Source of the DNA: a virus
Taxonomy: Duplodnaviria; Caudoviricetes
Length of the DNA: 64,000 bases
IMG/VR virus record: IMGVR_UViG_3300037470_000126
Span: 1-64,000 of that record
Direction: 5' to 3' (one strand)
Shown: one piece after another, positions 5,144-35,081 of the stretch
Numbering within the stretch: position 1 is the stretch's first letter
Layout: each line of letters opens with the position of its first letter
Program-made: the position numbers and the translations under genes
Notes under the pieces: model-generated
What the model was told of the DNA's origin: nothing
The model's input: the letters and a program-made list of their open reading frames with translations, nothing else
Database searches by the model: none

Positions 5144-5371
5144 TCAGGATGAGCGAGACACGCGCTCTTGTCGTCGTGAGTTCGCTACGCGCTGTCCATG
5201 TCGCTCTGTCAGCCAGTCTCTTGCCTCTTCCCACGTCTCAAATATGCGCCAGGTACCGTAGGGTACACGGGCTTTCCAGCACCCTCCACAGCCGAGAAGC
5301 TGGTACCTCTTGAGGCGAGCGTGGCCCGACTGTGAGGCGAATGATCCTCGTGTTCCTATGGCCTTGGACAT
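5144..5371 (-). CDS. Hypothetical protein
   Basis: ATG after GAGAGGG; first gene of the leftward arm. Confidence 0.55.
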   Translation of the reverse strand: MSKAIGTRGSFASQSGHARLKRYQLLGCGGCWKARVPYGTWRIFETWEEARDWLTERHGQRVANSRRQERVSRSS

Positions 5372-21229: not shown

Positions 21230-22039
21230 TTGGCAGTCTCAGCCAAGAAGGATTACGCGGCTATCGCCGCCGCGAAGATCCAGAAGCCGAGCGGCCAGAA
21301 GCGGATGCCTCAGGTTCTGGTCTACGCGAGGAACAAGAAGGGGAAGAGCACTTTCGGTGCCAGCGCCCCCGACGTCCTCATGATCGACCCGGAGAACGGC
21401 ACCGATCACCTTCGGAAGGTTGACCCGGCTGTGTGGAAGGTCTCACAGTGGGAAGACCTGGAGGAGGTGTACCGCTTCCTCCGCCTCGGTACCCACAAGT
21501 ACAAGTGGGTATGCGTGGACGGTATCACCCGTATCCACAACATGGCCCTCCGATTCGTGATGCAACAGCAGGAGGAACGAGACCTCGACCGTATTCCTGG
21601 GTTCGTCCAGCTCAAGGACTACGGCAAGGCCAACGAACTCCTCAAGGGGATGATGTTGAACTTCCAGGCCCTGGGAGTCGGCGTCGTCTACACCGTCCAA
21701 GAGCGGATGCAAGCGGTGGAGAACACCGCCGAAGAGGACGAGGACGCGGAGGAGTCGGACGTCATGTTCGTCCCTGACGTGTCCAAGGGAGCCCGTAGCG
21801 CCATCAATGCAATGGTGGACGTAATCGGTCGCCTCTACACCGTGCGGACCACCAAGACCGTCAAGCTCCGGAACGGCGGCACCAAGGAGAAGGAGTACGT
21901 CCAGCGCCGTCTGTGGCTGGGTGTGCACCCTCGGTACGACACCGGCTTCCGTTCAGACTACGAACTGCCGGATTTCCTCACTGACCCGACGGTCCCTCGT
22001 CTGGTCGAACTTCTCAACAGTGGAAAGGTCGCTAAGTAA
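21230..22039 (+). CDS. AAA_24/Sak4-like ATPase (recombination / ssDNA annealing)
   Basis: YARNKKGKST, IDPENG, CVDGIT; TTG start after AAGGAG. Confidence 0.85.
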   Translation: MAVSAKKDYAAIAAAKIQKPSGQKRMPQVLVYARNKKGKSTFGASAPDVLMIDPENGTDHLRKVDPAVWKVSQWEDLEEVYRFLRLGTHKYKWVCVDGITRIHNMALRFVMQQQEERDLDRIPGFVQLKDYGKANELLKGMMLNFQALGVGVVYTVQERMQAVENTAEEDEDAEESDVMFVPDVSKGARSAINAMVDVIGRLYTVRTTKTVKLRNGGTKEKEYVQRRLWLGVHPRYDTGFRSDYELPDFLTDPTVPRLVELLNSGKVAK

Positions 22040-22707
22040 TGGCACAGCAGGAGACCCTAGACTTTTCTCAGGTACGGGACGCGGGTAACTTCAACCCCAA
22101 GCGCAAGACCGAGGGCGAATACCTCGGCACCATCGTGTCGTACGAGGACACCAAGTCCAAGTCCGGCAACAAGATGTGGGTCTACGGCATCCAGCTCAAG
22201 TCCGACCGCCGTGCCGTGTACCCCGTGTACTGCGTGCTGGACGTCAAGAGCCTGTGGAAGCTCCGTGACCTCCTGATGGCCTGCGGCAAGAAGGTCCCCA
22301 AGAAGCGGCTGTCCATCAAGGGCGACGTGATCATGGGCAAGGAGGTCGGCATCTTCCTGGAAGACGACGAGTACGAGGGCAAGCCCAAGTCCGTCATCAC
22401 CTCATTCTTCCCCGCCGACGAGTACGAGGGCACCGACGCCGACGGCTCCAACGACGACTCGGACGAGGACGAGGAGGTCGAGGAGGAGGAGTACGAGGAC
22501 GAGGCTCCCGCCGACGACGAGGACGACACCGACGAGGAGTCGGAAGACGACGAGGACGAGGAAGACGAGGAGGACGAGCCGGAGCCGGCACCCAAGAAGG
22601 CTCCTGCCAAGAAGTCTCCCGCGGCTCGCAAGGCCCCGGCCCGTGCCAAGAAGAAGGCCCCGCCGGCTGACGAGGACGACGACGAGATGGACGTGGAAGA
22701 TCTCTGA
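22039..22707 (+). CDS. ssDNA-binding protein (DUF669-like) with an acidic tract, AKK repeats and an acidic tip
   Basis: EGEYLGTI..KSKSGNKMW core; D/E tract; ends DDDEMDVEDL; follows the exonuclease and Sak4-like genes. Confidence 0.8.
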   Translation: MAQQETLDFSQVRDAGNFNPKRKTEGEYLGTIVSYEDTKSKSGNKMWVYGIQLKSDRRAVYPVYCVLDVKSLWKLRDLLMACGKKVPKKRLSIKGDVIMGKEVGIFLEDDEYEGKPKSVITSFFPADEYEGTDADGSNDDSDEDEEVEEEEYEDEAPADDEDDTDEESEDDEDEEDEEDEPEPAPKKAPAKKSPAARKAPARAKKKAPPADEDDDEMDVEDL

Positions 22708-24001: not shown

Positions 24002-25387
24002 TCACTCCGCGGCGGGCAGTTCGTCAACGATGGCGCAGCGGGTGAGCTGGGTGGACTTCATGCCCTCCCACTCCTTGTGCGCCTTCACGGAACCCTTGAT
24101 CACGTAGCGGGCGCCGATCTCCTCGCCCAGGGTGTCGTTCGAGGCGAACCACTTAACGACGTTGCCCTCCTCTGTGATCATGGTGTAGAGGGTGGTGCTG
24201 CCGTAGTCGCTGTCCAGGTACTTGATGGCCTTGATTTCAACGGTCAGCGTCTCGCGGCTGCCCTTCACACCCGCTGCCTTGTCAGGCGCGGTACCGATGA
24301 ACTCAGAGGCGGCGTACACGCTGGCCTCACGCTCACGGATCAACGTGCGCTCCAGGTGCTTGGCCCAAGCCTGCGGGGCAGAGGCGAGGAGGCCGATGTT
24401 GCGAGCGGAGACCATCTTGCCTGCGGCAACAGCCTTCATGTTCAGGACGTAGTCAGACGAGCCGGAGAAGTCGTCGGACAGGATGAACGCGAGAAGCTGG
24501 GCAGCCTTGTCGGCAGCCTCGTCGGCAAGCGGGGCGATCTTCGCGGCCCACTCGCGGTCGTGCTTGCTCTTGCTCGGCGAGAGGGCGGTCATAACGTCGC
24601 CCTTCGTGGTGTTGCCGTAAGAGCTGGCGGGCTTGAACCCTTCAAGCTTCACGCAGGCCCAGGCAACGGCGAGGACGGTCAGCGGGTTGTACTCACGCTC
24701 ACCGGCTCCCCCGAAGAACGAACCCTCCTCGTCGTCGTCTCCGGACAGCTCGGGGAAGGCAATGGTCGTGTACTGCCCGGTGAAGTCCTTCAGGCAAGAG
24801 CTACCGACCTGGAGCATCTCGCCGGACTCCTGGTTGCGTACGACGTAGGTCACGAGGCGCTGGCGCGTAGTGCGGCAGTGGTCGCACCAGCCTTCGGTCA
24901 CGGAGTCGCGGTTCACGCCCTCGACACCCGGGACGGAGCGCACGATCAGGCCAGCGTTCGCGTCCCAATCAAGCTTGGCGATGAACTCCCACCCGTTGTA
25001 CGCGGGGGCGTTGCCGGTGATCTCGACCTTGTACTCGGTCCAGGTCTCGGTGATCTTGGTGAGTTCGTTGGTCTCGGTGACCTCGACCTCTTCGACGCTC
25101 ATGGACAGCGTGCCGGCGAGGCCCTTACGCTCGGCGCGGGCGTTGATCTTGTTCAGCTTCTCCTGGGTGGCGAGGAGCTGGAAGTGGTCGATGCGAGCGC
25201 TCATGGCGATCTCGCGGACGGTCACGTCGGTGACAGCCTGGATGGTGTGGGACGGGGTGACGGGCGTCTGGATCTCGGTGGCGAGCGGCTTAACAACGGG
25301 AGCGGAGACACCCTTCGCGGCGGCCTTGCGGCACGCGGCACGCGCGCTCTTGGTCTTCGGGTGGGTGCAGTTCGCGTGGGCGCTCAT
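24002..25387 (-). CDS. Cassette protein: N-terminal HCHC module, central Zn ribbon, C-terminal OB-fold-like domain
   Basis: MSAHANCTHPKTKSARAACR; WCDHCRTTRQR...QVGSSCLKDF; beta-rich C-terminus ending KGSVKAHKEWEG.KSTQLTRC. Confidence 0.85.
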   Translation of the reverse strand: MSAHANCTHPKTKSARAACRKAAAKGVSAPVVKPLATEIQTPVTPSHTIQAVTDVTVREIAMSARIDHFQLLATQEKLNKINARAERKGLAGTLSMSVEEVEVTETNELTKITETWTEYKVEITGNAPAYNGWEFIAKLDWDANAGLIVRSVPGVEGVNRDSVTEGWCDHCRTTRQRLVTYVVRNQESGEMLQVGSSCLKDFTGQYTTIAFPELSGDDDEEGSFFGGAGEREYNPLTVLAVAWACVKLEGFKPASSYGNTTKGDVMTALSPSKSKHDREWAAKIAPLADEAADKAAQLLAFILSDDFSGSSDYVLNMKAVAAGKMVSARNIGLLASAPQAWAKHLERTLIREREASVYAASEFIGTAPDKAAGVKGSRETLTVEIKAIKYLDSDYGSTTLYTMITEEGNVVKWFASNDTLGEEIGARYVIKGSVKAHKEWEGMKSTQLTRCAIVDELPAAE

Positions 25388-25425
25388 GTCGGGCTCCTCG
25401 TCTCGTCGTGTTCTCTCTTGAGAGA

Positions 25426-25454
25426 AGCTTACCAAGTGAAACCGCACGATGCAA
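25426..25454 (-). promoter_or_regulatory. Array promoter
   Basis: TTGCAT-N17-TAAGCT. Confidence 0.8.
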
Positions 25455-25507
25455 GGCGGGAGCGAAAGTCGTGTGCGCCCATCTCACGGCGCTATCCGTG
25501 CCCGAGG

Positions 25508-25521
25508 AATGCCGGGTATCC
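25508..25521. promoter_or_regulatory. Operator copy
   Basis: AATGCCGGGTATCC. Confidence 0.7.
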
Positions 25522-25608
25522 GCCCCTCCCGATCAAGCGTCACACGCCCGTACAGAGCCTTGGGCCGTACCACACCCAACGTGTGTGCCGGCAAGCTAGC
25601 CCGTCCAC

Positions 25609-25636
25609 GAGAAAGGGCCCCGTAGGGCCCCTCTCT
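25609..25636 (-). terminator. Intrinsic terminator
   Basis: AGGGCCC-CGTA-GGGCCCCT stem with a TTTCTC tail on the minus strand. Confidence 0.7.
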
Positions 25637-25655
25637 GCTACTCTCTCGCCCCCTC

Positions 25656-26087
25656 TCAGTCGGCGAGGCGGATGTTCCCCGTCAGGTAGTCGCTGGACGA
25701 GTACAGCGCGCGCTGGACGGCGCTCTCGGCGTTGGGGTCGATCTGGAAGGCGATGCGCCACAGGCGCTTGCCGGGCTGGCTCTTGCTGTCCTGGACATAG
25801 TCAAGCTGGCCGGTGATCTCGCGGAGGACAACACCCTCGGGCAGACGGTGGTCGTCGTACTTGGCCCACCCGGTGACCTTCGTGCCGGCTCGCATCGCAG
25901 CGGACAGCTCCTCGTCGGTCAGGGGGGTGAAGCCGGCGATGGTGCTACGGATCTTGCGGCAGTTGGCACGGGCCTTCTTCGTGCTCTGGTGGTCACACGC
26001 GGCGTGCGAGGTGCCGGCCTTCAGGTACTGCGAGAGGGTCAGGGGGGTCTCGGTGACGGTGGTCTCGGGGGCGGTGTTCTCAGTCAT
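25656..26087 (-). CDS. Cassette protein with HCHC module
   Basis: GAGGAG RBS; SHAACDHQSTKKARANCR. Confidence 0.85.
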   Translation of the reverse strand: MTENTAPETTVTETPLTLSQYLKAGTSHAACDHQSTKKARANCRKIRSTIAGFTPLTDEELSAAMRAGTKVTGWAKYDDHRLPEGVVLREITGQLDYVQDSKSQPGKRLWRIAFQIDPNAESAVQRALYSSSDYLTGNIRLAD

Positions 26088-26116
26088 TGTGTGCTCCTCG
26101 TGTTGTCGTTGGCACG

Positions 26117-26145
26117 ACTCTAGCATGCCCGTGGCGGTCGTCCAA
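26117..26145 (-). promoter_or_regulatory. Array promoter
   Basis: TTGGAC-N17-TAGAGT. Confidence 0.7.
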
Positions 26146-26154
26146 GGGGTGAAT

Positions 26155-26469
26155 TCAGGGGCGCATGTCGTCGGCGAGGATCTCCCACTCGCCCATCAGG
26201 CGGGCGGTCTCGTGGACGAGACGAACGGCGAGGGCAGGGTTCCAGTCGGCGAGGCGGTACCCGTGCTCCTGGGCGACCTCGTCAAGGGTGATGCGGTGGA
26301 TCATGTTCACGCAACCCTCGGCGCGGGCACGACGGACGAACACGAAGGTGTGGTTAACGATCGTGGCGGTGGTCTCCTTCACACGCTCACGCCGGCAAGC
26401 GGAGCGGGCGGCCTTCGTGGCCTCGTGCTGGCAGCGGCTGTGGTCGGTGGTCTTGCGTGTCGTCGTCAT
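26155..26469 (-). CDS. Cassette protein with HCHC module (leaderless)
   Basis: DHSRCQHEATKAARSACR; ATG 6 nt after the -10 box. Confidence 0.85.
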   Translation of the reverse strand: MTTTRKTTDHSRCQHEATKAARSACRRERVKETTATIVNHTFVFVRRARAEGCVNMIHRITLDEVAQEHGYRLADWNPALAVRLVHETARLMGEWEILADDMRP

Positions 26470-26475
26470 GTGACG

Positions 26476-26505
26476 ACCATACACCCTGCCGGCGGTCCCG
26501 CGCAA
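26476..26505 (-). promoter_or_regulatory. Array promoter
   Basis: TTGCGC-N18-TATGGT-N6-ATG. Confidence 0.75.
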
Positions 26506-26556
26506 GGGGAGCCCAGAGGCCGTGTGTGCCCGTCTAACGATGGCAGCGGCACGGAG

Positions 26557-26571
26557 GTATGCCGGGTATCC
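26557..26571. promoter_or_regulatory. Operator copy
   Basis: GTATGCCGGGTATCC. Confidence 0.75.
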
Positions 26572-26610
26572 TCTGTCCCGCGTCGGCTCTCAGAAGCCGG
26601 CTCAGCCACC

Positions 26611-26636
26611 GAGAAACCCGCTTGCGCGGGTTCTCT
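26611..26636 (-). terminator. Intrinsic terminator
   Basis: GAGAAACCCGC-TT-GCGCGGGTTCTC hairpin. Confidence 0.7.
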
Positions 26637-26648
26637 GCTGGGTGCGGC

Positions 26649-26906
26649 TCAGTGGCGGACAGCGGCGATGATCTCTTCCACGTCCTTCGTGTTGTCGTAG
26701 TACCCTTCGATCAGGGCGGAGTCAATGGCTCCCAGACCGAAGATGATCTCATCGGCGTCGGCGCTGTTGTCGTAGTACGAGGCGACGAGGGCGGCGATCT
26801 TCGTGGCGGTCTCAGTGGCACGAGCCTTGCGAGCGGCGCGGCACTTGGCGCGGGCGGTCTTGGTAGCGGGGTGGAGGCAGTCGCTGTGGTTCGTGTTCGT
26901 CTTCAT
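26649..26906 (-). CDS. Cassette protein with HCHC module (leaderless)
   Basis: NHSDCLHPATKTARAKCR; acidic helical C-terminus with a repeated YYDN. Confidence 0.85.
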   Translation of the reverse strand: MKTNTNHSDCLHPATKTARAKCRAARKARATETATKIAALVASYYDNSADADEIIFGLGAIDSALIEGYYDNTKDVEEIIAAVRH

Positions 26907-26912
26907 GTGAGA

Positions 26913-26942
26913 ACAGTACCACGGCCCCACCGGCGAGTGCAA
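26913..26942 (-). promoter_or_regulatory. Array promoter
   Basis: TTGCAC-N18-TACTGT-N6-ATG. Confidence 0.75.
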
Positions 26943-27010
26943 GGGCACAACGCGAGAAAGGGCCTCTCCCCTTTCGAGAAAGACCCTCGCTCTTATGTGG
27001 ATTCAGGCTG

Positions 27011-27376
27011 TCAGGCCTCGACAGTCTCCGCGTAGGTGCAGGAGATGGTGGTGCGCTTGGTCTTGCCCTCGTCGTTCACGTAGTTGATCCACTGCTTACC
27101 CCACCCGGAGATCTTGACGCCGGTGGCGACCTCGGACTCCTCGTCGTCGGTCAGGCGAACAGCGATGCGGACGGGGGTCTCGCGGAACTCCCTCCAGTTC
27201 TCAGCGGTAACGCGCACCGGCTCGAACACGGGGGCGGGAGTCTCGATGGTGGTAACACCCTCGGCGGCAACGGTGGAGAGCATGTCGGCGAACTTGGCGC
27301 GGCTCCGACGGCACTGGGCACGGGCGGCCTTCGTGCTGACGTGCTCGCAGTTCGCGTGGCTCTGGATCTTGGACAT
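27011..27376 (-). CDS. Cassette protein with HCHC module and a small beta-barrel-like domain
   Basis: SHANCEHVSTKAARAQCR; GAGGAG RBS; the C-terminal domain resembles that of 29694-30083. Confidence 0.85.
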   Translation of the reverse strand: MSKIQSHANCEHVSTKAARAQCRRSRAKFADMLSTVAAEGVTTIETPAPVFEPVRVTAENWREFRETPVRIAVRLTDDEESEVATGVKISGWGKQWINYVNDEGKTKRTTISCTYAETVEA

Positions 27377-27417
27377 TCTGTGCTCCTCGGTTCGTGTCGT
27401 TCTTGCTTACAGGGATA

Positions 27418-27446
27418 ACACTACGCACTCAGCGCCGGGCCGTCAA
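27418..27446 (-). promoter_or_regulatory. Array promoter
   Basis: TTGACG-N17-TAGTGT, followed by GTAAGCAAGA. Confidence 0.85.
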
Positions 27447-27576
27447 GGCCAGCTCACGGTTTCTTTCAAGATTCTTTAGGTTGCCACAATCCCTGCTACA
27501 GAAAGGCTCTGTGCGCTCGCCAGTGAGCCGGCACCCTCTCCCCGGAGGTACCGGCTCGGCTGACCCTGCTAAGCGC

Positions 27577-27831
27577 TTACGCGCCGGCGTGAGGGTTGAG
27601 AAGGCGCTCCATGAGCCGGTTGGTCAGCTCACGCGCCACCTCCTGCTCGGTGACGGCGTAGACACGAGACGCGGCAGCGTGGAGCTCCGCTACGTCCCAC
27701 ACCTCCCCGAACTTCTGATCCATCGTGGCGTCGGAGAACTCCTTGACCACTGCCGTCATCGGCTCGTGGATCAAGGGGACCAGCTCGGTGATCAGTTCAT
27801 CTAGGCGGCGGGATTGATCGGCAGAGAACAT
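27577..27831 (-). CDS. Cassette protein, helical hypothetical
   Basis: AAGGGAG RBS; own promoter; 84 aa. Confidence 0.75.
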   Translation of the reverse strand: MFSADQSRRLDELITELVPLIHEPMTAVVKEFSDATMDQKFGEVWDVAELHAAASRVYAVTEQEVARELTNRLMERLLNPHAGA

Positions 27832-27869
27832 GGCACACTCCCTTGTGTACGTTCGGTTCCTACTCGACT

Positions 27870-27898
27870 ACAGTACCGCGGTGAGAGACAGATCACAA
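27870..27898 (-). promoter_or_regulatory. Array promoter
   Basis: TTGTGA-N17-TACTGT. Confidence 0.65.
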
Positions 27899-27974
27899 GG
27901 GGGCGCACAGGGGGCGCACGGAGCACGAGGGGCGCACGCACACACGGCCGTCTGACGGCCTCAGTGTCCGCGGT

Positions 27975-27989
27975 GGGTACCCGGCATAC
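27975..27989. promoter_or_regulatory. Operator copy (inverted)
   Basis: GGGTACCCGGCATAC, the reverse complement of GTATGCCGGGTACCC. Confidence 0.7.
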
Positions 27990-28070
27990 CTCCGCCTCGT
28001 TCAGGCTCTCAGAAGCCCGTACAGGCTTGATCGGCAGATCTCAATATGGCAACGTTGCCAGCTCCCAAAC

Positions 28071-28107
28071 GAGGAAGCCCCTCCCTCTTTCGAGGTCGGG
28101 GCCTTCC
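28071..28107 (-). terminator. Intrinsic terminator
   Basis: GGAAGCCCC / GGGGCCTTCC stem. Confidence 0.55.
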
Positions 28108-28119
28108 CTAACAGTTTGG

Positions 28120-28428
28120 TTACTCGGCGGCGCGGGCCTTGCGGCAGATCGCGCGGTCCTTCTTGGTCTTCGGGTGCTTGCACGCTGCGTGGCTGGTGTG
28201 GGACTTGGCGATCCCGTTGGAGTGACCCTTCGCCGGCGGCGTGGTCTCAGGGTCGGGGGCACCCTGGCAGATCAGGCAGTCATCCTGGGCACCCTCGGTC
28301 TCGTGGCTCTCGTCACTGTGGGTGTTCTCGTGACCCTGGTAGTCGTAGCAGGCTTCGCAGATGTTGCCCTCAAGCAGGTCGGAGGAGACGGGGCGGAAGG
28401 TGCAGTAGGTGCAAAGCTTGCGAGCCAT
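28120..28428 (-). CDS. Cys/His-rich cassette protein with a C-terminal HCHC module
   Basis: CTYC, CEAC, H..H, CLIC, then SHAACKHPKTKKDRAICR. Confidence 0.85.
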   Translation of the reverse strand: MARKLCTYCTFRPVSSDLLEGNICEACYDYQGHENTHSDESHETEGAQDDCLICQGAPDPETTPPAKGHSNGIAKSHTSHAACKHPKTKKDRAICRKARAAE

Positions 28429-28474
28429 TTGGATCACTCTCTCTGGTTGGTGTTGCTCTGTGCTGATAGATAGA

Positions 28475-28503
28475 ACATTACACGGGTCCAGTGGCTAGCG
28501 CAA
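28475..28503 (-). promoter_or_regulatory. Array promoter
   Basis: TTGCGC-N17-TAATGT. Confidence 0.75.
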
Positions 28504-28577
28504 GGCCTGGCAACGTTGTCATTGAAAAAATCTTGAGGAGGCCTGTACGGCGATCTGACGCCGGCAGCCTCTCGCCG

Positions 28578-28592
28578 GTATGCCGGGTATCC
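28578..28592. promoter_or_regulatory. Operator copy
   Basis: GTATGCCGGGTATCC. Confidence 0.75.
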
Positions 28593-28683
28593 GGCGGCAC
28601 CGCTGGGCTCTTAGGCGGGCTCTCAGAGCCTCGCTCATGCGAGTGCCCCCGCCCTCTCACGAGGACGGAGGCTCTCTGATCGG

Positions 28684-29079
28684 TCAGGCGTTACGCTGGC
28701 GACGGCACGCGGCTCGTGCGCTCTTGGTCGCGGCGTGATCACACTCGGCGTGAGCGCCACGCACACCCACGACCTTCATCTCCTTGACGACAGGTGCGGC
28801 AGCGGCCTTCTTGGCGGTCTTCTTCGCAGCCGGCGACGCCTTGTCCAGAGCCTCCGTGCAGCGGCTCTCGGGGTGGATCTGACGCTGGCGGGCGTCAAGC
28901 TCCCAGCCTCCCGTGATCTCGAAGCCACAGAGGCCACAGAGGGGGTTGCAGCGGTAGCAACGGCCGTTCTCGTCAACCTCGCACACGGTGTCGAGGCAAC
29001 AAGTGGTCTCGCCGTCCTCGTCGGTCTCGGGGTCGATGGTCTGGCAGGTGGTGCAGTGCTTGGACATCGGGTCGAACAT
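28684..29079 (-). CDS. Cys-rich cassette protein with a C-terminal HCHC module
   Basis: CTTC, CC, CYRC, CGLC, then AHAECDHAATKSARAACR; AAGGAG RBS. Confidence 0.85.
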   Translation of the reverse strand: MFDPMSKHCTTCQTIDPETDEDGETTCCLDTVCEVDENGRCYRCNPLCGLCGFEITGGWELDARQRQIHPESRCTEALDKASPAAKKTAKKAAAAPVVKEMKVVGVRGAHAECDHAATKSARAACRRQRNA

Positions 29080-29118
29080 CTGAGGCTCCTTGCTCGCTCG
29101 GTCTTGCTTACGAGTAGA

Positions 29119-29147
29119 ACACTACGGCATACGTGGGACCGTGTCAA
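29119..29147 (-). promoter_or_regulatory. Array promoter
   Basis: TTGACA-N17-TAGTGT, followed by GTAAGCAAGA. Confidence 0.9.
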
Positions 29148-29187
29148 GGACGTGAGCGAGAATCTTCCACACAAGCCTGTGACGTCC

Positions 29188-29223
29188 GAAAACCCCGTCT
29201 CACTAGTGAGAGCGGGGTTCTCT
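29188..29223 (-). terminator. Intrinsic terminator
   Basis: AACCCCG-TCTCAC-TA-GTGAGA-GCGGGGTT hairpin. Confidence 0.7.
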
Positions 29224-29238
29224 GCCAGGGTCAATATG

Positions 29239-29376
29239 TCAGTATGAGCAGTTCTCGCAGGTCCCGTCCTCCTCCAGGTGCGTCTCACAGGTCGAGCAGA
29301 AGTGGATCTCATCGCGGCAGATCTCGATCGGGCAGCCGACCAGACCCTCAAGTGACATTTCGATCTCGAAGTCCAT
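29239..29376 (-). CDS. 45-aa acidic Cys-rich cassette peptide
   Basis: AAGGGAG RBS, own promoter and terminator; MDFEIEMSLEGLVGCPIEICRDEIHFCSTCETHLEEDGTCENCSY*. Confidence 0.8.
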   Translation of the reverse strand: MDFEIEMSLEGLVGCPIEICRDEIHFCSTCETHLEEDGTCENCSY

Positions 29377-29417
29377 TGTCTTCTCCCTTGTTTCGCTCTC
29401 TCTTGCTTACATGGACT

Positions 29418-29446
29418 ACTTTACGCGACTGACCCGGGGCCGTCAA
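29418..29446 (-). promoter_or_regulatory. Array promoter
   Basis: TTGACG-N17-TAAAGT, followed by GTAAGCAAGA. Confidence 0.85.
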
Positions 29447-29638
29447 GGCAGATCAGTGGTTTTCTTCAAGATTCTTTTGGAAGCTCTGTGTGCCCGTCTA
29501 AGCGCCTGTCAGACACTCGCCGGCAGTCTCGTACGCTCACGCGCTCTCGTGCTCTCACATCGCCGTCTAGGACGTCTCAGGCGCGTCTCTAGGGCTCTCG
29601 CACTCACGACACGCAGACTTGTGCCGGCTCAGACATGC

Positions 29639-29677
29639 GAAAGCCCGAGAGACTGTCTTAGCTCTCTCGGGCTCTCT
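29639..29677 (-). terminator. Intrinsic terminator
   Basis: AGCCCGAGAGA / TCTCTCGGGCT stem. Confidence 0.7.
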
Positions 29678-29693
29678 AATCGTGCTGGGCAGT

Positions 29694-30083
29694 TCAGTTG
29701 GTCAGGCGGACGCTGTCCTCCTCGATCAGGTCGGCAACGGGGCGACGGACGGTCTTGCCGTCCTCGTTCTTGAACTGGATGTTCCGCTCGCTCCAGCCGG
29801 TCAGCTCGGTGGCGATCACGTCGCCGTCGGTGAAGCGGAGCGTAACGCCGCGGCCCTTGTACTCCTTCCAGTTCTCGCGGTGCAGGACGAGGGCGTTGAC
29901 GGAGATGTGAACGCGGTGCGGAGCCGGCATGAGCATCTTCGGGCCGTTCATCGCAGCCTCAACGGCGGCAAGAATCGGGTTGGCGATCTCGACGGTGGTC
30001 GCCTTCTTCATTGCGCGGCGGCAGGCAGCGCGGGCAACCTTGGTGGAGGGGTGCTGGCAGGCGGCGTGAGAGAAGCGGGCCAT
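29694..30083 (-). CDS. Cassette protein with HCHC module and a small beta-barrel-like domain
   Basis: FSHAACQHPSTKVARAACR; GAAGGA RBS. Confidence 0.85.
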   Translation of the reverse strand: MARFSHAACQHPSTKVARAACRRAMKKATTVEIANPILAAVEAAMNGPKMLMPAPHRVHISVNALVLHRENWKEYKGRGVTLRFTDGDVIATELTGWSERNIQFKNEDGKTVRRPVADLIEEDSVRLTN

Positions 30084-30133
30084 TTGGATCATTCCTTCGG
30101 TTGGTGTTGCGCTCTGTTGTGCTGACATGGATA

Positions 30134-30162
30134 ACACTACGGCACTCCGCGTGCTCCGTCAA
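30134..30162 (-). promoter_or_regulatory. Array promoter
   Basis: TTGACG-N17-TAGTGT. Confidence 0.85.
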
Positions 30163-30237
30163 GGCGAGAACGAGGTTTTCTCCAAGATCTTTTAGAAACC
30201 TCTCTGTGGCCTTCTAAGCGCCTCAGCCCGTGCCTCG

Positions 30238-30252
30238 GTATGCCGGGTATCC
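30238..30252. promoter_or_regulatory. Operator copy
   Basis: GTATGCCGGGTATCC. Confidence 0.75.
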
Positions 30253-30348
30253 TCTGTCCCGCGTCGTCCGCGAGAGAGCCGCACAGGGCCTCGTTCCATA
30301 CGAGTGCCCTCACCCTCTTTCGAGGGCAAGGGCTCTCTTCTCTCAGTC

Positions 30349-30528
30349 TCAGAAGATCCAGTTCCAGATCTTGACGTGCACGGACTTGATCATGTCCCAG
30401 ACGACGGAGAACACGGCGGCAACCCCGTCAAACCCGAGAATGGTGATCGTGGTCAGGATAACGGCGATCACGAGAATGATCATCGCACCCGAGAACCCGT
30501 CTGTGTCGCGCTGGGGGTGGTTCATCAT
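30349..30528 (-). CDS. 59-aa membrane cassette protein
   Basis: AGGGAG RBS; MMNHPQRDTDGFSGAMIILVIAVILTTITILGFDGVAAVFSVVWDMIKSVHVKIWNWIF*. Confidence 0.8.
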   Translation of the reverse strand: MMNHPQRDTDGFSGAMIILVIAVILTTITILGFDGVAAVFSVVWDMIKSVHVKIWNWIF

Positions 30529-30567
30529 CAGAGACTCCCTGCCTCGTTGTTTCTTGCTTACGAAGTA

Positions 30568-30597
30568 AGCTTACCACGCGCCCCGCGCTACATGCAA
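30568..30597 (-). promoter_or_regulatory. Array promoter
   Basis: TTGCAT-N18-TAAGCT, followed by GTAAGCAAGA. Confidence 0.8.
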
Positions 30598-30645
30598 GGG
30601 CGAGAGCTGAATTTCTCAACTCTCGCCCTCGCTCACGTCATCGGA

Positions 30646-30858
30646 TCACTGGTGCTTGGTCGGCGTGATCTTCGCGTCGGGGTGCTCACGCTTGATCTCG
30701 TCGGCGCTCACGGCGCTGTACGTCTGGAGAGTGACAGGCTTGCCGCTCTCGTCCTTGTACGTCACGACGTGCGTGGGACGGTCGATGGACGGCGTACGAT
30801 CGCTGCCGCTCTCGTCACCCTCGCTCTTGCGTCCCTTGATCTTGTCCCAGAGTCCCAT
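30646..30858 (-). CDS. Cassette protein with an amphipathic MGLWDKIKG start
   Basis: GAGAGGG RBS; own promoter; 70 aa. Confidence 0.8.
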   Translation of the reverse strand: MGLWDKIKGRKSEGDESGSDRTPSIDRPTHVVTYKDESGKPVTLQTYSAVSADEIKREHPDAKITPTKHQ

Positions 30859-30894
30859 TAGATCCCTCTCGTCGTTGTTCTTGCTTACGGAGTA

Positions 30895-30923
30895 AGCTTA
30901 CCACTCTGCTCCGCGTCATGCAA
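30895..30923 (-). promoter_or_regulatory. Array promoter
   Basis: TTGCAT-N17-TAAGCT, followed by GTAAGCAAGA. Confidence 0.8.
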
Positions 30924-30977
30924 GGTGGCACGCCGATGAATCCTACGCGGATCTGAGAGCCGCTAGCTAGCCGCACT

Positions 30978-30991
30978 ATACCCGGGTATCC
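30978..30991. promoter_or_regulatory. Operator copy
   Basis: ATACCCGGGTATCC. Confidence 0.75.
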
Positions 30992-31057
30992 GTCGTCCGT
31001 CATCGGCTCGCACACGGGCACACAGAGCCTCGTCCATACGAGGAGGCCCCCGCTCGA

Positions 31058-31080
31058 AGCCGCAAATGGGGGCCTATAAT
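31058..31080 (+). promoter_or_regulatory. Candidate class 2 promoter for the HNH gene
   Basis: AGCCGCAAAT-N7-TATAAT-N7-ATG(31088). Confidence 0.55.
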
Positions 31081-31087
31081 AGATCTC

Positions 31088-31429
31088 ATGCCCATTGGTG
31101 TGCCATGTACTAATCCTGACCATCATCGGAAAAGCAAAAGAGGGAGGTGCCTTGACTGTAGGTATCTACGCATGAAGCCGCGCAATCACTACGGGGACTA
31201 TGTCAAGGGTGCCAAGTGTGAAGTATGCGGTTCAACCGAGAACTTGGGCGTGGATCACGATCACTCGTGCTGCCCCCGTAACGGACGCTCCCGGTCTTGC
31301 GGTGAGTGTGTGAGGGGGACACTATGCCAGAGCTGTAACATGGCTCTGACCTATGATGTCACCCCGGAGATCCTGAGAGCACTAGCGGACTATCTGGAGA
31401 AATACGAGAGCGGCACTACTCCCGAGTAG
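31088..31429 (+). mobile_element. Endonuclease VII-family homing endonuclease, antisense to the array
   Basis: CEVC...VDHDHSCC...CGECVRGTLCQSCNMAL; ILRALADYL C-terminus. Confidence 0.85.
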
Positions 31430-31457
31430 TGCCGCCCCCTCTTCTTGCCGGCTTCGC

Positions 31458-31709
31458 TTAGCCCTTGTTGTTGATCTTCTTCATGTGGTCGAGGATCGTG
31501 TTGGTGATCAAGGTCTCGGCGGCGTTGTAGATCTTGAGGGCGTCGTGGCTGTCGTGATCTTCCACACCCTTCTCGTCGCAACGCGCGATGGCGATGGCAT
31601 CCGCGTAGTCGGCGATCTCGGCGGAGATGGCGTCGATCATCTGATGGGCGATGGCTTCGAGGTTCGCCTCCTTCATGATGTTGTGGATCTTGAGCTGCAT
31701 GGCGTCCAT
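31458..31709 (-). CDS. Cassette protein, helical hypothetical
   Basis: GGGGAG RBS; own promoter. Confidence 0.75.
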   Translation of the reverse strand: MDAMQLKIHNIMKEANLEAIAHQMIDAISAEIADYADAIAIARCDEKGVEDHDSHDALKIYNAAETLITNTILDHMKKINNKG

Positions 31710-31751
31710 CGTGCTCTCCCCTCAGGCCCGTCTCTCGGGCTCACGTCTACG

Positions 31752-31780
31752 ACTATACACGGTGCCGGCTCTCGTGACAA
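31752..31780 (-). promoter_or_regulatory. Array promoter
   Basis: TTGTCA-N17-TATAGT. Confidence 0.85.
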
Positions 31781-31802
31781 GGACGCGCCGGCTCAACCGC
31801 CG

Positions 31803-31841
31803 AGAGAGGGAGTCTCGTGATGCTGTGAGACTCCCTCTCTC
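31803..31841 (-). terminator. Intrinsic terminator
   Basis: AGAGAGGGAGTCTC / GAGACTCCCTCTCT, a 14-bp stem. Confidence 0.75.
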
Positions 31842-31848
31842 TACTCAG

Positions 31849-32133
31849 TCACCCAAGATCGCCGGCGTTGTACGTAGGCTCTTCGCCGGTCTCGTGGACG
31901 TGAAGCTCTTCCGCGTATGCAGCTTCGAGCTTGTCAAGGATCATGCGAAAGATCACGAGTTCAGCGCCTCGCTTAGCCTTCGGGTCCTTGATGTCAGCAG
32001 TAACCTTCTCTGCCTCTCGCTCGATGAAGTTCTCCGCGATGCTTGCCGCACCTTCAGCGCCGATCACGTTGATCATGTGATCGAAAGCCTGTCGCGCTTC
32101 ATCCGTCGTGAGCCTGTTAATGCTCTCGCTCAT
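31849..32133 (-). CDS. Cassette protein, acidic helical hypothetical
   Basis: GAGGGA RBS; 94 aa. Confidence 0.75.
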   Translation of the reverse strand: MSESINRLTTDEARQAFDHMINVIGAEGAASIAENFIEREAEKVTADIKDPKAKRGAELVIFRMILDKLEAAYAEELHVHETGEEPTYNAGDLG

Positions 32134-32201
32134 GTGACTTCCCTCTGTTGAGTTAACAATCGCCTTGCTCTGTGAGCCGGTCTCGCTTGCTCACGAGAAG
32201 A

Positions 32202-32230
32202 ACACTAGCCGGCTACAGCCGGCTTGTCAA
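32202..32230 (-). promoter_or_regulatory. Array promoter (leftward member of a divergent pair)
   Basis: TTGACA-N17-TAGTGT. Confidence 0.9.
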
Positions 32231-32440
32231 CACGTTCACGAGAGAAGTTGAGAAAGCTCTGTGCGTACGTCTGAAGCTCTCTCGCGTCGCTCTCGTCTCT
32301 CAGCACGTACGCGCTCTGTGAAGCGCTCACAGACGCTCTCACACGCGCTCTCGCGTCGCTCTGCTGTCTCTGCTCTGTGTCGAGAACGCGCACGTCAGAG
32401 CACGTCTCAAAAGATCTTGAAACTTTTCCTCGCTACTTCC

Positions 32441-32469
32441 TTGCATCGTAGCGAGGAAGCGCGTAGTGT
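32441..32469 (+). promoter_or_regulatory. Array promoter (rightward member of a divergent pair)
   Basis: TTGCAT-N17-TAGTGT; AAAAGATCTTGAAA upstream. Confidence 0.8.
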
Positions 32470-32516
32470 CTTACTCAGCAGCACAGAACGACGCAAGACA
32501 CGCAAGACAGTACAAC

Positions 32517-32545
32517 TGATCTTTGACAACTCAACAGAGTGTGAA
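32517..32545 (+). promoter_or_regulatory. rrn-like boxA/boxC-like element
   Basis: TGATCTTTGACAACTCAACAGAGTGTGAA in the 5' leader; no -10 box follows the embedded TTGACA at 17-18 nt. Confidence 0.5.
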
Positions 32546-32581
32546 TCGCAAGAAACGACACACAACAACAGGAGTCAGACA

Positions 32582-32842
32582 ATGACGACTAAGCGTTTCT
32601 CTCACGCGAACTGTGCTCACGCTTCCTCGAAGGTAGCGCGTGCGAAGTGCCGGCGTGATCGTGCGAAGTTCGCTCAGATCCTCTCAGACGAGATCTTGAA
32701 CCACGAGATCGAGACTCAGGAGATCATCCCGAACCCGATCATGGATGAAGTGAGCGCCATGATCAACGGCCCGAAGATGCTGGAGATGGGCAAGAAGGGT
32801 CGGGACACGCTTCGCAAGCGTGCCGCGCGTGCCAAGAAGTAA
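32582..32842 (+). CDS. Cassette protein with HCHC module
   Basis: AGGAG RBS; MTTKRFSHANCAHASSKVARAKCR. Confidence 0.85.
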   Translation: MTTKRFSHANCAHASSKVARAKCRRDRAKFAQILSDEILNHEIETQEIIPNPIMDEVSAMINGPKMLEMGKKGRDTLRKRAARAKK

Positions 32843-33807: not shown

Positions 33808-33822
33808 TGGGGAACCAACGCG

Positions 33823-33896
33823 TACCCACGGAGGGATTTGAACCCCCAACCTTTCGGACCTAAACCGAACGCCTCTCCCAATTGGGCTACGCGGGC
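33823..33896 (-). tRNA. tRNA-Leu(TAG) with a short variable loop
   Basis: Acceptor GCCCGCG/CGTGGGT, 3-bp D stem, TTCGG-TTTAGGT-CCGAA, T arm GGGGG-TTCAAAT-CCCTC, discriminator A73; CCA not encoded. Confidence 0.85.
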
Positions 33897-34316: not shown

Positions 34317-35081
34317 TCAGTGCGTGGCGTTCCAGGCTGCCACGATCTTCTTTACGTCCTCTGCGGTGAAGACGTAAGAGCCTCCGGCGCTCTGCTGGAA
34401 GTTGCGACCTACGGCCCACTTACGAAGCCACGCACGGAAGTTCTTTGCCGGCACACCCATCGCGGCTGCGACCTCAGGCGCTGAGAACGTCTTAGGAGCG
34501 CTCTCGTCAGTCGATGCGAGAGTCTGTGCCGGCGCTGCCTGCGAGGCGCTTACAGGAGCGCTCACGCGCTTCTCGGGCATACTCACGACGACCGGAGCGA
34601 CTGTGTCAACGAACGTGATAGCCGCGGCGGCGATCCTCTCGTCTTTCGGCAGGTAAGAGAGGCCCTTCCAGCACGGCGGGCAGTAGTAGAAACGGCCACC
34701 CGTGGGAGCCTTCGGCTTGCGGTGCTTGGAGTAGCGCTTCCCGCACGAGTGCTCGGCGACCCAGCGGCCTTCGGGCATGTCAGCCTCAGTGCACGGCTTG
34801 GGATCCACCACGCCCAACTGGATCGCGACTGCCTGCCACTCGGGACCGTGCTTGGCTCCCGGCGTCAGGGCGTGGGCAATCTCGTGCCGGCACGTCTGCT
34901 CCACGTGCTCACGGTCGTGGCGGTCGACGTACGCGACGGACAGGAGGAGTTCCTTAGGGCCGTACTTGCACAGGCCCAGGGTCCTCATGCGATTCATCCA
35001 AGCGAACCGCCATCCCTGCTCCCACAGACCGTACTCCTTGATTAGGTGGGTCATCATCTGTGCGGCTTCTTCTCTATTCAT
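34317..35081 (-). CDS. SprT-like metalloprotease with a C-terminal putative DNA-binding domain
   Basis: RTLGLC; HEIAHAL...HGPEW (HExxH); CGKRY..CPPC; C-terminal APEVAAAMGVPAKNFRAWLR. Confidence 0.88.
   Translation of the reverse strand: MNREEAAQMMTHLIKEYGLWEQGWRFAWMNRMRTLGLCKYGPKELLLSVAYVDRHDREHVEQTCRHEIAHALTPGAKHGPEWQAVAIQLGVVDPKPCTEADMPEGRWVAEHSCGKRYSKHRKPKAPTGGRFYYCPPCWKGLSYLPKDERIAAAAITFVDTVAPVVVSMPEKRVSAPVSASQAAPAQTLASTDESAPKTFSAPEVAAAMGVPAKNFRAWLRKWAVGRNFQQSAGGSYVFTAEDVKKIVAAWNATH

What the first reader, a model, noticed from the sequence alone, without database searches (positions are those of the whole stretch)
24002..32842. Nine different proteins share one portable H-x2-C-x-H-x9-C-R module: a candidate addressing tag
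Seen: HANCTHPKTKSARAACR (start 25387), HAACDHQSTKKARANCR (26087), HSRCQHEATKAARSACR (26469), HSDCLHPATKTARAKCR (26906), HANCEHVSTKAARAQCR (27376), HAACKHPKTKKDRAICR (C-terminal, 28428), HAECDHAATKSARAACR (C-terminal, 29079), HAACQHPSTKVARAACR (30083) and HANCAHASSKVARAKCR (32582, opposite strand). H, C, H, K, R, C and R are invariant. The module sits at either terminus of largely unrelated cargos of 85-461 aa, and I found it only in the cassette array. I recognise no named family. Inference: a mini zinc finger with an Arg-rich helix used as a universal docking tag. It could target cargos to one host machine (RNA polymerase, ribosome, DNA or an RNA hairpin), to a virion-packaging and injection route like the T4 capsid-targeting sequence, or to a protease such as the adjacent SprT.
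Basis: partly seen in the sequence, partly recalled or inferred. Interest (0 to 1): 0.92.

Follow-up and report, generated by a model that had tools for sequence, protein, structure and literature searches.

The report
Portable His-Cys mini-domain on phage proteins
Nine otherwise unrelated small genes of a Streptomyces phage carry the same 17-residue His/Cys module followed by a basic helix; it is a real, widespread and unnamed mini-domain of actinobacterial phages, most likely a tiny zinc finger that tethers its carriers to DNA or RNA, though nothing about binding has been measured.

Summary
H-x2-C-x-H-x9-C-R occurs exactly nine times in the window and in the whole 82-kb phage genome, against none in shuffles, and only in the small-gene array.

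The phage is a relative of Streptomyces phages Zuko and KimJongPhill, which carry 11 and 10 copies in the same array.

The module is not private to this phage:
- A profile of it finds 558 protein clusters.
- It sits at N-termini, at C-termini, internally, or in tandem (2-4 copies).
- In my sample it is attached to about 90 unrelated cargo groups.
- It matches no Pfam, NCBIfam or PDB entry, and I found no paper on it. Only PHROG families of unknown function cover it.

Models place a His/Cys knuckle that caps a helix starting at the conserved Lys, with a Lys/Arg stripe along that helix. The only variants seen at a ligand position are Cys-to-His.

The recognisable cargos are HNH and endonuclease VII nucleases, SprT-like proteases, Rho_N, a phage zinc-finger domain and an Sm/Hfq-like barrel.

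Best reading (about 0.5): a zinc-stabilised basic helix that tethers its carriers to nucleic acid.

The SprT-substrate route is contradicted, and the virion-packaging route is unsupported and disfavoured.

This scan found the same module earlier in another phage genome.

The parts
25328..25378 (-). Module copy 1, N-terminal in g1 (gene 24002-25387, 461 aa). The cargo is phrog_2319, and that profile starts after the module.
25956..26006 (-). Module copy 2, 26 residues into g2 (gene 25656-26087, 143 aa)
26392..26442 (-). Module copy 3, N-terminal in g3 (gene 26155-26469, 104 aa)
26838..26888 (-). Module copy 4, N-terminal in g4 (gene 26649-26906, 85 aa). This protein was modelled at pLDDT 93: a coil knuckle at residues 7-15, then a helix from Lys16.
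27308..27358 (-). Module copy 5, N-terminal in g5 (gene 27011-27376, 121 aa). The cargo is the beta-barrel domain shared with g8.
28141..28191 (-). Module copy 6, C-terminal in g6 (gene 28120-28437, 105 aa). The cargo is a Cys-rich zinc-ribbon-like domain of the phrog_18656 type.
28702..28752 (-). Module copy 7, C-terminal in g7 (gene 28684-29079, 131 aa). The cargo is Cys-rich.
30018..30068 (-). Module copy 8, N-terminal in g8 (gene 29694-30083, 129 aa). A flexible linker follows, then a C-terminal Sm/Hfq-like barrel (residues 68-129).
32603..32653 (+). Module copy 9, N-terminal in g9 (gene 32582-32842, 86 aa). It is the only copy on the plus strand, and its linker is shared with g8.

Best explanation
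The module is a self-contained mini-domain of about 25 residues. Its consensus is S-H-[AS]-[ND]-C-[DT]-H-P-x-T-K-x-A-R-A-x-C-R-[RK]-x-R.

The His-x2-Cys-x-His knuckle and the Cys nine residues later most likely hold one zinc ion. That ion would cap and fix the N-terminus of an alpha-helix that begins at the conserved Lys. The helix displays Lys10, Arg13, Arg17/18 and Arg20 as a stripe on one face.

I read the module as a non-enzymatic nucleic-acid tether, for DNA or RNA (undecided). Domain shuffling has attached it to many unrelated early proteins and nucleases of actinobacterial phages. It would then keep those cargos on the host nucleoid, on phage DNA or on transcripts.

Shown: the motif, its portability, its spread, protein-level selection, the ligand substitution pattern, the predicted knuckle-plus-helix shape and the kinds of cargo. 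Inferred: zinc binding, nucleic-acid binding and the localising role.
For: Real and selected:
- Nine copies against none in shuffles.
- Synonymous codon variation at invariant residues.

Portable and widespread:
- 558 clusters at E<=1e-3 among 1.84 billion representatives; the top 150 all keep H..C.H(9)C.
- In the 255 proteins sampled, positions are N-terminal 175, C-terminal 46 and internal 43, on 92 cargo clusters after the module is masked.
- Tandem arrays of 2-4 copies occur.
- The phrog_2319 profile covers g1 only from residue 62, so that cargo family is modelled without the module.

Metal site:
- Among 57 distinct modules in the fetched loci, 55 are HCHC and 2 are HHHC. None has a non-ligand residue at those four positions.

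Shape:
- The g4 model (pLDDT 93) has a coil at residues 7-15 and a helix from Lys16.
- The g8 model starts the helix at the equivalent Lys15.

Basic stripe:
- Consensus positions 10, 13, 17, 18 and 20 are Lys or Arg in 73-97% of 159 modules.

Cargo census:
- Five independent HNH_3 fusions, often arranged [module-HNH] twice, and one endonuclease VII protein with three C-terminal tandem modules. None of these has another recognised DNA-binding domain.
- SprT-like proteases with an N-terminal module.
- Rho_N and Phage_zn_bind_8.
- The largest cargo family (80 of 255, including g5 and g8) has an Sm/Hfq-like barrel: best Z 8.7, rmsd 1.3 A over 57 residues to Hfq 3hfo, and 27 of the top 35 rows are Hfq, Sm or LSm chains, plus three RimP entries.

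Recurrence:
- Clustered multi-copy arrays occur in Zuko (11), KimJongPhill (10) and two other complete phages, G001 (10) and G006 (7).
Against: - No binding to metal or to nucleic acid has been measured.
- No solved structure or curated family resembles the module, so the fold assignment rests on AlphaFold alone. I could not inspect the coordinates of the four ligands.
- Most cargos have no known function. Phage early genes are in any case rich in nucleic-acid enzymes, so the census is only moderate evidence.
- The Sm-like match is at the level where common small barrels also score (note).
- A basic helix could equally bind an acidic protein surface.
- It is unexplained why one phage would need nine to eleven different proteins on nucleic acid.
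Confidence: 0.5

Rival explanations
1. The module is a protein-docking tag. The zinc-capped basic helix binds one acidic surface on a host or phage protein, such as RNA polymerase or a sigma factor, an SSB tail, or the phage's own acidic-tailed DUF669-like protein at 22039-22707. A whole set of early effectors would then be recruited to one hub.
For: - Portability, terminal position and the flexible linkers between module and cargo fit a tag (low pLDDT at g8 residues 30-36 and 46-63).
- Nine to eleven carriers per genome sit in an early-type array beside the replication and recombination genes.
- The phage encodes a protein with a very acidic tail next to the array.
Against: - The conserved exposed residues are Lys, Arg, Thr and Ala, with no conserved hydrophobic contact residues.
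- Many carriers would compete for one site.
- The module is also found on HNH nucleases and SprT-like proteases, where a DNA-binding arm is the ordinary expectation, and in tandem arrays.
- No partner was identified or tested.
Confidence: 0.2
2. The module is a structural staple. It is a tiny metal-binding cap that stabilises or protects the ends of very small proteins, against proteolysis or as a redox or zinc switch. The carriers would share no common target.
For: - The carriers are mostly 70-150 residues.
- The module is at chain ends, and in g4 its helix runs on into the cargo helix.
- Ligand positions are the most strictly conserved.
Against: - A mere staple would not need the conserved Lys/Arg stripe that extends four residues beyond the last ligand.
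- In g8 the module is separated from the cargo by disordered linkers, so it is not packed on it.
- Tandem repeats at the C-terminus of a 499-residue nuclease are not explained.
Confidence: 0.12
3. The module is a virion-packaging or injection signal (like the T4 capsid-targeting sequence), or a recognition tag for the neighbouring SprT-like protease.
For: - The N-terminal position in seven of nine carriers resembles the T4 capsid-targeting sequence (resemblance from memory, not tested).
- A SprT-like gene lies next to the array at 34317-35081.
Against: - The module also occurs at C-termini, internally and in tandem.
- It occurs on HNH nucleases in bacterial chromosomes and on a DUF2637 membrane protein.
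- None of the nine carriers lies in the structural gene block.
- SprT-like genes are absent from complete phages G001 and G006, which carry 10 and 7 modules.
- Elsewhere the SprT-like protease carries the module itself.
Confidence: 0.05

Closest known systems
PHROG families phrog_18656 and phrog_1342 (function unknown)
   Same: Their profiles cover the module in all nine proteins (E 1e-14 to 8e-3). The sequence family therefore already sits in a public phage protein clustering.
   Different: The PHROGs are whole-protein clusters with no annotation. They do not single out the 17-25-residue module as a separate mobile domain, and I found no paper that mentions them.
Accessory DNA-binding modules of homing endonucleases (for example AP2 or NUMOD-type modules attached to HNH enzymes; recalled from the literature)
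   Same: It is a small terminal or repeated module joined by linkers to HNH_3 and endonuclease VII catalytic domains that have no other recognisable DNA-binding domain.
   Different: It has a different sequence and predicted shape, with a His/Cys knuckle plus a single basic helix. Here it is mostly attached to non-nuclease cargos. DNA binding is not shown.
Arginine-rich-motif RNA-binding peptides (lambda N, HIV Tat/Rev; recalled from the literature)
   Same: It is a short basic helix at a protein terminus. It is attached here to an Sm/Hfq-like barrel in the largest carrier family.
   Different: ARM peptides have no metal site and are unstructured until they bind. No target hairpin was identified here. 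This is an analogy only.
T4 capsid-targeting sequence
   Same: It is a short shared N-terminal element on unrelated proteins of one phage.
   Different: This module also occurs at C-termini, internally and in tandem, and in bacterial chromosomes. Its carriers lie in an early-type array, not among head genes.
Classical small zinc fingers (C2H2, zinc knuckles, TAZ-type helix-capping sites)
   Same: Four His/Cys ligands lie within 16 residues, and one ligand is on a helix. The only variants seen at a ligand position are Cys-to-His.
   Different: The ligand order and spacing H-x2-C-x-H-x9-C fits none of these signatures. There is no Pfam, NCBIfam or PDB sequence match and no convincing fold match.

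Membership tests
phrog_18656 / phrog_1342 | Significant match to the family HMM | tested here: met
   All nine proteins match one or both profiles over the module. g6 matches phrog_18656 over 83 residues at E 7e-14.
Classical C2H2 zinc finger | Ligand pattern C-x2-4-C-x12-H-x3-5-H and a match to the Pfam zf-C2H2 models | tested here: not met
   The sequence shows H-x2-C-x-H-x9-C. No Pfam zinc-finger model covers the module at E<=1; the only zinc-finger-type row (zf-RING_13, E 0.54, g6 residues 8-62) lies in the cargo.
ZAS anti-sigma zinc motif | H-x3-C-x2-C signature within an anti-sigma domain (zf-HC2) | tested here: not met
   The spacing differs, and there is no Pfam zf-HC2 match.
T4-type capsid-targeting sequence | Strictly N-terminal, on proteins packaged into the head, removed by the prohead protease | tested here: not met
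   Two of the nine copies here are C-terminal, and elsewhere the counts are 46 C-terminal and 43 internal out of 264. Tandem copies exist. Cleavage and packaging could not be tested.
Zinc-binding domain in general | Four metal ligands conserved, with only ligand-for-ligand substitutions; metal actually bound | tested here: inconclusive
   The counts are 55 HCHC and 2 HHHC, with no non-ligand variants. Metal occupancy is not testable with these tools.
Sm/Hfq fold (cargo of g5 and g8, not the module) | N-terminal helix followed by a five-stranded bent beta-barrel that superposes on Hfq/Sm | tested here: inconclusive
   Z 8.7, rmsd 1.3 A over 57 residues to 3hfo, and the top 35 rows are mostly Hfq, Sm or LSm chains plus RimP. 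Domain pLDDT is only 80-87. A sequence profile against the PDB gave no Hfq hit.
Nucleic-acid-binding module | Direct binding to DNA or RNA | not testable with these tools
   There is only indirect support: the basic stripe and the nuclease, SprT, Rho_N and Sm-like cargos.

The most novel reading that the evidence does not exclude
The module is a phage 'zip code'. A single zinc-capped basic helix would send a whole suite of nine to eleven unrelated early effectors to one cellular address, such as the host nucleoid, the phage replication site or the transcription machinery. New effectors could then be recruited simply by fusing the tag. Actinophages would thereby have a modular effector-addressing system comparable in logic to secretion or capsid-targeting signals.
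Probability: 0.2. Interest if true: 0.85.

Novelty: new variant of a known kind. Interest (0 to 1): 0.55.

Why it matters
Most early genes of actinobacterial phages are annotated only as hypothetical proteins. A single undescribed 25-residue module marks nine to eleven of them in each Zuko-like genome, and hundreds of protein clusters elsewhere.

That gives one experimental handle on many unknown proteins at once. Finding what the module binds would locate all its carriers.

It would also add a new signature to the catalogue of mini zinc fingers. It could serve as a compact fusion tag for work in Streptomyces. It also deserves a domain-database entry, so that these proteins stop being annotated as unrelated.

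Tried and rejected
- Curated libraries: Pfam, NCBIfam and a PDB sequence-profile search gave nothing for the module.
- Fold searches: Foldseek and VIA-align on the g4 model gave only weak generic helical matches. The ESM Atlas gave no usable hit for the module.
- Literature: searches for the motif written as a pattern, for six module peptide strings, for the PHROG ids and for the Zukovirus names found nothing on the module.
- The search for related loci could not use the short alignment, so I used a degenerate DNA pattern instead.
- A complex prediction of two module copies with zinc, testing a self-association rival, returned 'no answer'. I do not count it either way.
- A DNA-level repeat as the cause of the conservation is rejected by the codon analysis.
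- The SprT-substrate idea is contradicted by co-occurrence; the capsid-targeting idea is unsupported and disfavoured by architecture.
- Mimicry of a conserved host protein is unlikely. The strict pattern hits only 10 stretches in 185,579 species genomes, all Actinomycetota. Two of the loci lie beside an HTH/DUF6879 pair (L010) or a transposase (L003).
- tblastn with the 39-residue module against cultured phages found only the two Zukovirus phages and two Gordonia phages. This reflects the low sensitivity of a short query, not the true range.
Full report
**What the window is.** The window is 64 kb of an 82,368-bp complete virus record. It has about 78% nucleotide identity, over parts of the queried region, to Streptomyces phages KimJongPhill and Zuko of the genus Zukovirus. 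The region 24.0-32.8 kb is a run of small genes, mostly on the minus strand. It starts just after the replication and recombination genes: an AAA_24 RecA-like gene, an acidic-tailed DUF669-like gene and a VRR-NUC resolvase. In the two cultured relatives every gene of this run is annotated 'hypothetical protein'.

**Check of the observation.** A profile built from the nine copies finds only these nine in the whole genome. H, C, H, K, R, C and R are invariant. BLASTP among the array proteins shows that similarity is confined to the module, with two exceptions: g5 and g8 share a C-terminal domain, and g8 and g9 share a linker. The invariant Arg, Cys and Ala positions are written with different synonymous codons, and nucleotide identity within the module averages 66%. 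Selection therefore acts on the peptide and not on a DNA or RNA repeat.

**How far the module reaches.**
- Zuko has 11 copies and KimJongPhill has 10, all in the same array.
- A profile search of 1.84 billion representative proteins finds 558 clusters at E<=1e-3. The best 150 all keep H..C.H(9)C, and the consensus is S-H-[AS]-[ND]-C-[DT]-H-P-x-T-K-x-A-R-A-x-C-R-[RK]-x-R.
- In 255 carriers gathered from two searches, the module is N-terminal 175 times, C-terminal 46 times and internal 43 times. After the module is masked, the carriers fall into 92 cargo clusters, 65 of them singletons.
- Some proteins carry two to four copies in tandem.
- Each cargo family keeps its own placement, which fits one fusion event per family followed by descent.
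- The phrog_2319 profile matches g1 only from residue 62, so that cargo family is modelled without the module. Atlas relatives of g1 are 361-420 residues long against 461 for g1.
- A strict back-translated DNA pattern hits only 10 stretches in 185,579 species genomes. All are Actinomycetota: Streptomyces, Frankia, Nocardiopsis and Pseudonocardia. It hits 19 stretches in IMG/VR.
- Two further complete phages with no megablast similarity (G001) or of a different size class (G006) hold clustered arrays of 10 and 7 copies. In G001 the array again sits beside the RecA-like, acidic SSB-like and resolvase genes.
- An earlier report of this scan (e1-3486989) described the same module on four proteins of another Streptomyces phage and read it the same way. 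I list it as prior notice, not as independent evidence.

**What the module looks like.**
- With a 150-sequence alignment, AlphaFold2 models g4 at mean pLDDT 93. Residues 7-15, which hold the His-x2-Cys-x-His part, are coil. A helix starts at the invariant Lys16 and carries the last Cys on its second turn.
- The shallower g8 model starts the helix at the equivalent Lys15. It shows low-confidence linkers between the module and the cargo.
- In the consensus, positions 10, 13, 17, 18 and 20 are Lys or Arg in 73-97% of copies. Positions 10, 13, 17 and 20 follow an i, i+3, i+7, i+10 spacing, which places them on one face of a helix. That last step is my inference from helix geometry.
- Among 57 distinct modules in the fetched loci, 55 have the ligands H, C, H, C and two have H, H, H, C. 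None has a non-ligand residue at these positions. This is the substitution pattern expected of a metal site.
- No curated family, solved structure or fold match covers the module.

**What it is attached to.** Most cargos have no known family. The recognisable ones are:
- HNH_3 nucleases in five independent proteins, several arranged module-HNH-module-HNH;
- an endonuclease VII protein with three C-terminal tandem modules; none of these nucleases has another recognised DNA-binding domain;
- SprT-like metalloproteases with an N-terminal module;
- Rho_N, Phage_zn_bind_8 and DUF2786;
- a DUF2637 membrane protein with a C-terminal module.

The largest carrier family holds 80 of the 255 proteins and includes g5 and g8. 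It has a C-terminal five-stranded barrel whose best structural matches are Hfq, Sm and LSm proteins: Z 8.7, rmsd 1.3 A over 57 residues to 3hfo, and 27 of the first 35 rows are Hfq, Sm or LSm chains, plus three RimP entries. That score is at the level where common small barrels can also appear, and a sequence profile did not recover Hfq. I therefore treat the Sm-like reading as a lead.

**Interpretation.** The best-supported reading, at about 0.5, is a zinc-stabilised basic helix that tethers its carrier to DNA or RNA. The supports are the conserved Lys/Arg stripe without conserved hydrophobic contact residues, the tandem arrays, and the fact that every cargo of known biochemistry works on or with nucleic acid.

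It is still an inference, because neither metal binding nor nucleic-acid binding has been measured. Phage early regions are also rich in nucleic-acid enzymes in any case.

The rivals are:
- docking to one acidic protein surface (0.2);
- a structural or redox staple with no common target (0.12);
- a packaging signal or SprT recognition tag (0.05).

The SprT idea is contradicted: complete phages with 10 and 7 modules have no SprT-like gene, and elsewhere SprT-like proteases themselves carry the module. The capsid-targeting idea fits poorly with C-terminal, internal and tandem copies, with carriers in bacterial chromosomes and with a membrane-protein carrier. A self-association test of the module returned no answer, and I do not use it.

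**Novelty and score.** The sequence family is already inside two PHROG clusters of unknown function. This scan has also met it once before. No domain database, structure or paper that I could search describes it. I class it as a new variant of a known kind: an undescribed mini zinc-finger signature, notable for being deployed on nine to eleven different proteins within one phage genome.

Interest is 0.55. It is a clean, testable handle on many unknown actinophage early proteins, but the function is inferred and the principle of a small shuffled binding module is familiar.

Noticed in passing
window 27011-27376 (g5) and 29694-30083 (g8), C-terminal halves: The shared C-terminal domain is predicted as a five-stranded barrel. 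Its best structural matches are Hfq, Sm and LSm proteins (Z 8.7, rmsd 1.3 A, 57 residues). Module plus this barrel is the commonest carrier architecture (80 of 255) and also occurs in Streptomyces and Nocardiopsis chromosomes.
   Followed up: partly
window 34317-35081 (-): The SprT-like metalloprotease next to the array has no module. It ends instead in a segment with a weak, non-significant MerR-type HTH match (E 0.05). In other phages SprT-like proteins of about 200 aa carry the His/Cys module at the N-terminus (P0197, P0247, P0253).
   Followed up: partly
window 23770, 25512, 26562, 28583, 30243, 30982: CCGGGTATCC has six exact copies, and all lie inside the small-gene array. There are 14 matches with at most one mismatch, against a shuffle mean of 5.1. 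Two of the exact copies lie just upstream of the promoters of g1 and g3. This looks like an operator for an unidentified regulator.
   Followed up: partly
window 31088-31429 (+): A recombination endonuclease VII gene (Pfam E 6e-11) sits inside the array on the opposite strand and has no module. In a metagenomic relative (P0003) a double endonuclease VII protein carries three tandem modules.
   Followed up: no
L013 (+ strand ORF ending near 5162) and L017 2310-2549 / L031 6425-6640: Two natural variants replace the first Cys ligand by His (H-x2-H-x-H-x9-C). These are the only ligand-position variants seen among 57 distinct modules.
   Followed up: yes
L031 3655-4401 (phage G001): A DUF2637 membrane protein (Pfam E 3e-12) ends in the module. 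This suggests that in this phage the module is anchored at the membrane.
   Followed up: no
window 28120-28437 (g6); also L031 2136-2588, P0068, P0084: The g6 cargo is a recurrent Cys-rich domain: two CxxC pairs, an E-N-x-H-x-D-x-H segment and a third CxxC. It always has the module at its C-terminus (phrog_18656 type). Its function is unknown.
   Followed up: no
window 29694-30083, 32582-32842, 27011-27376: g8 is a mosaic. Its linker matches g9 and its barrel matches g5, which suggests recombination between cassettes using the module as a shared end.
   Followed up: partly
window 33822-33896 (-): A tRNA-Leu gene (anticodon TAG) lies between the array and the SprT-like gene.
   Followed up: no
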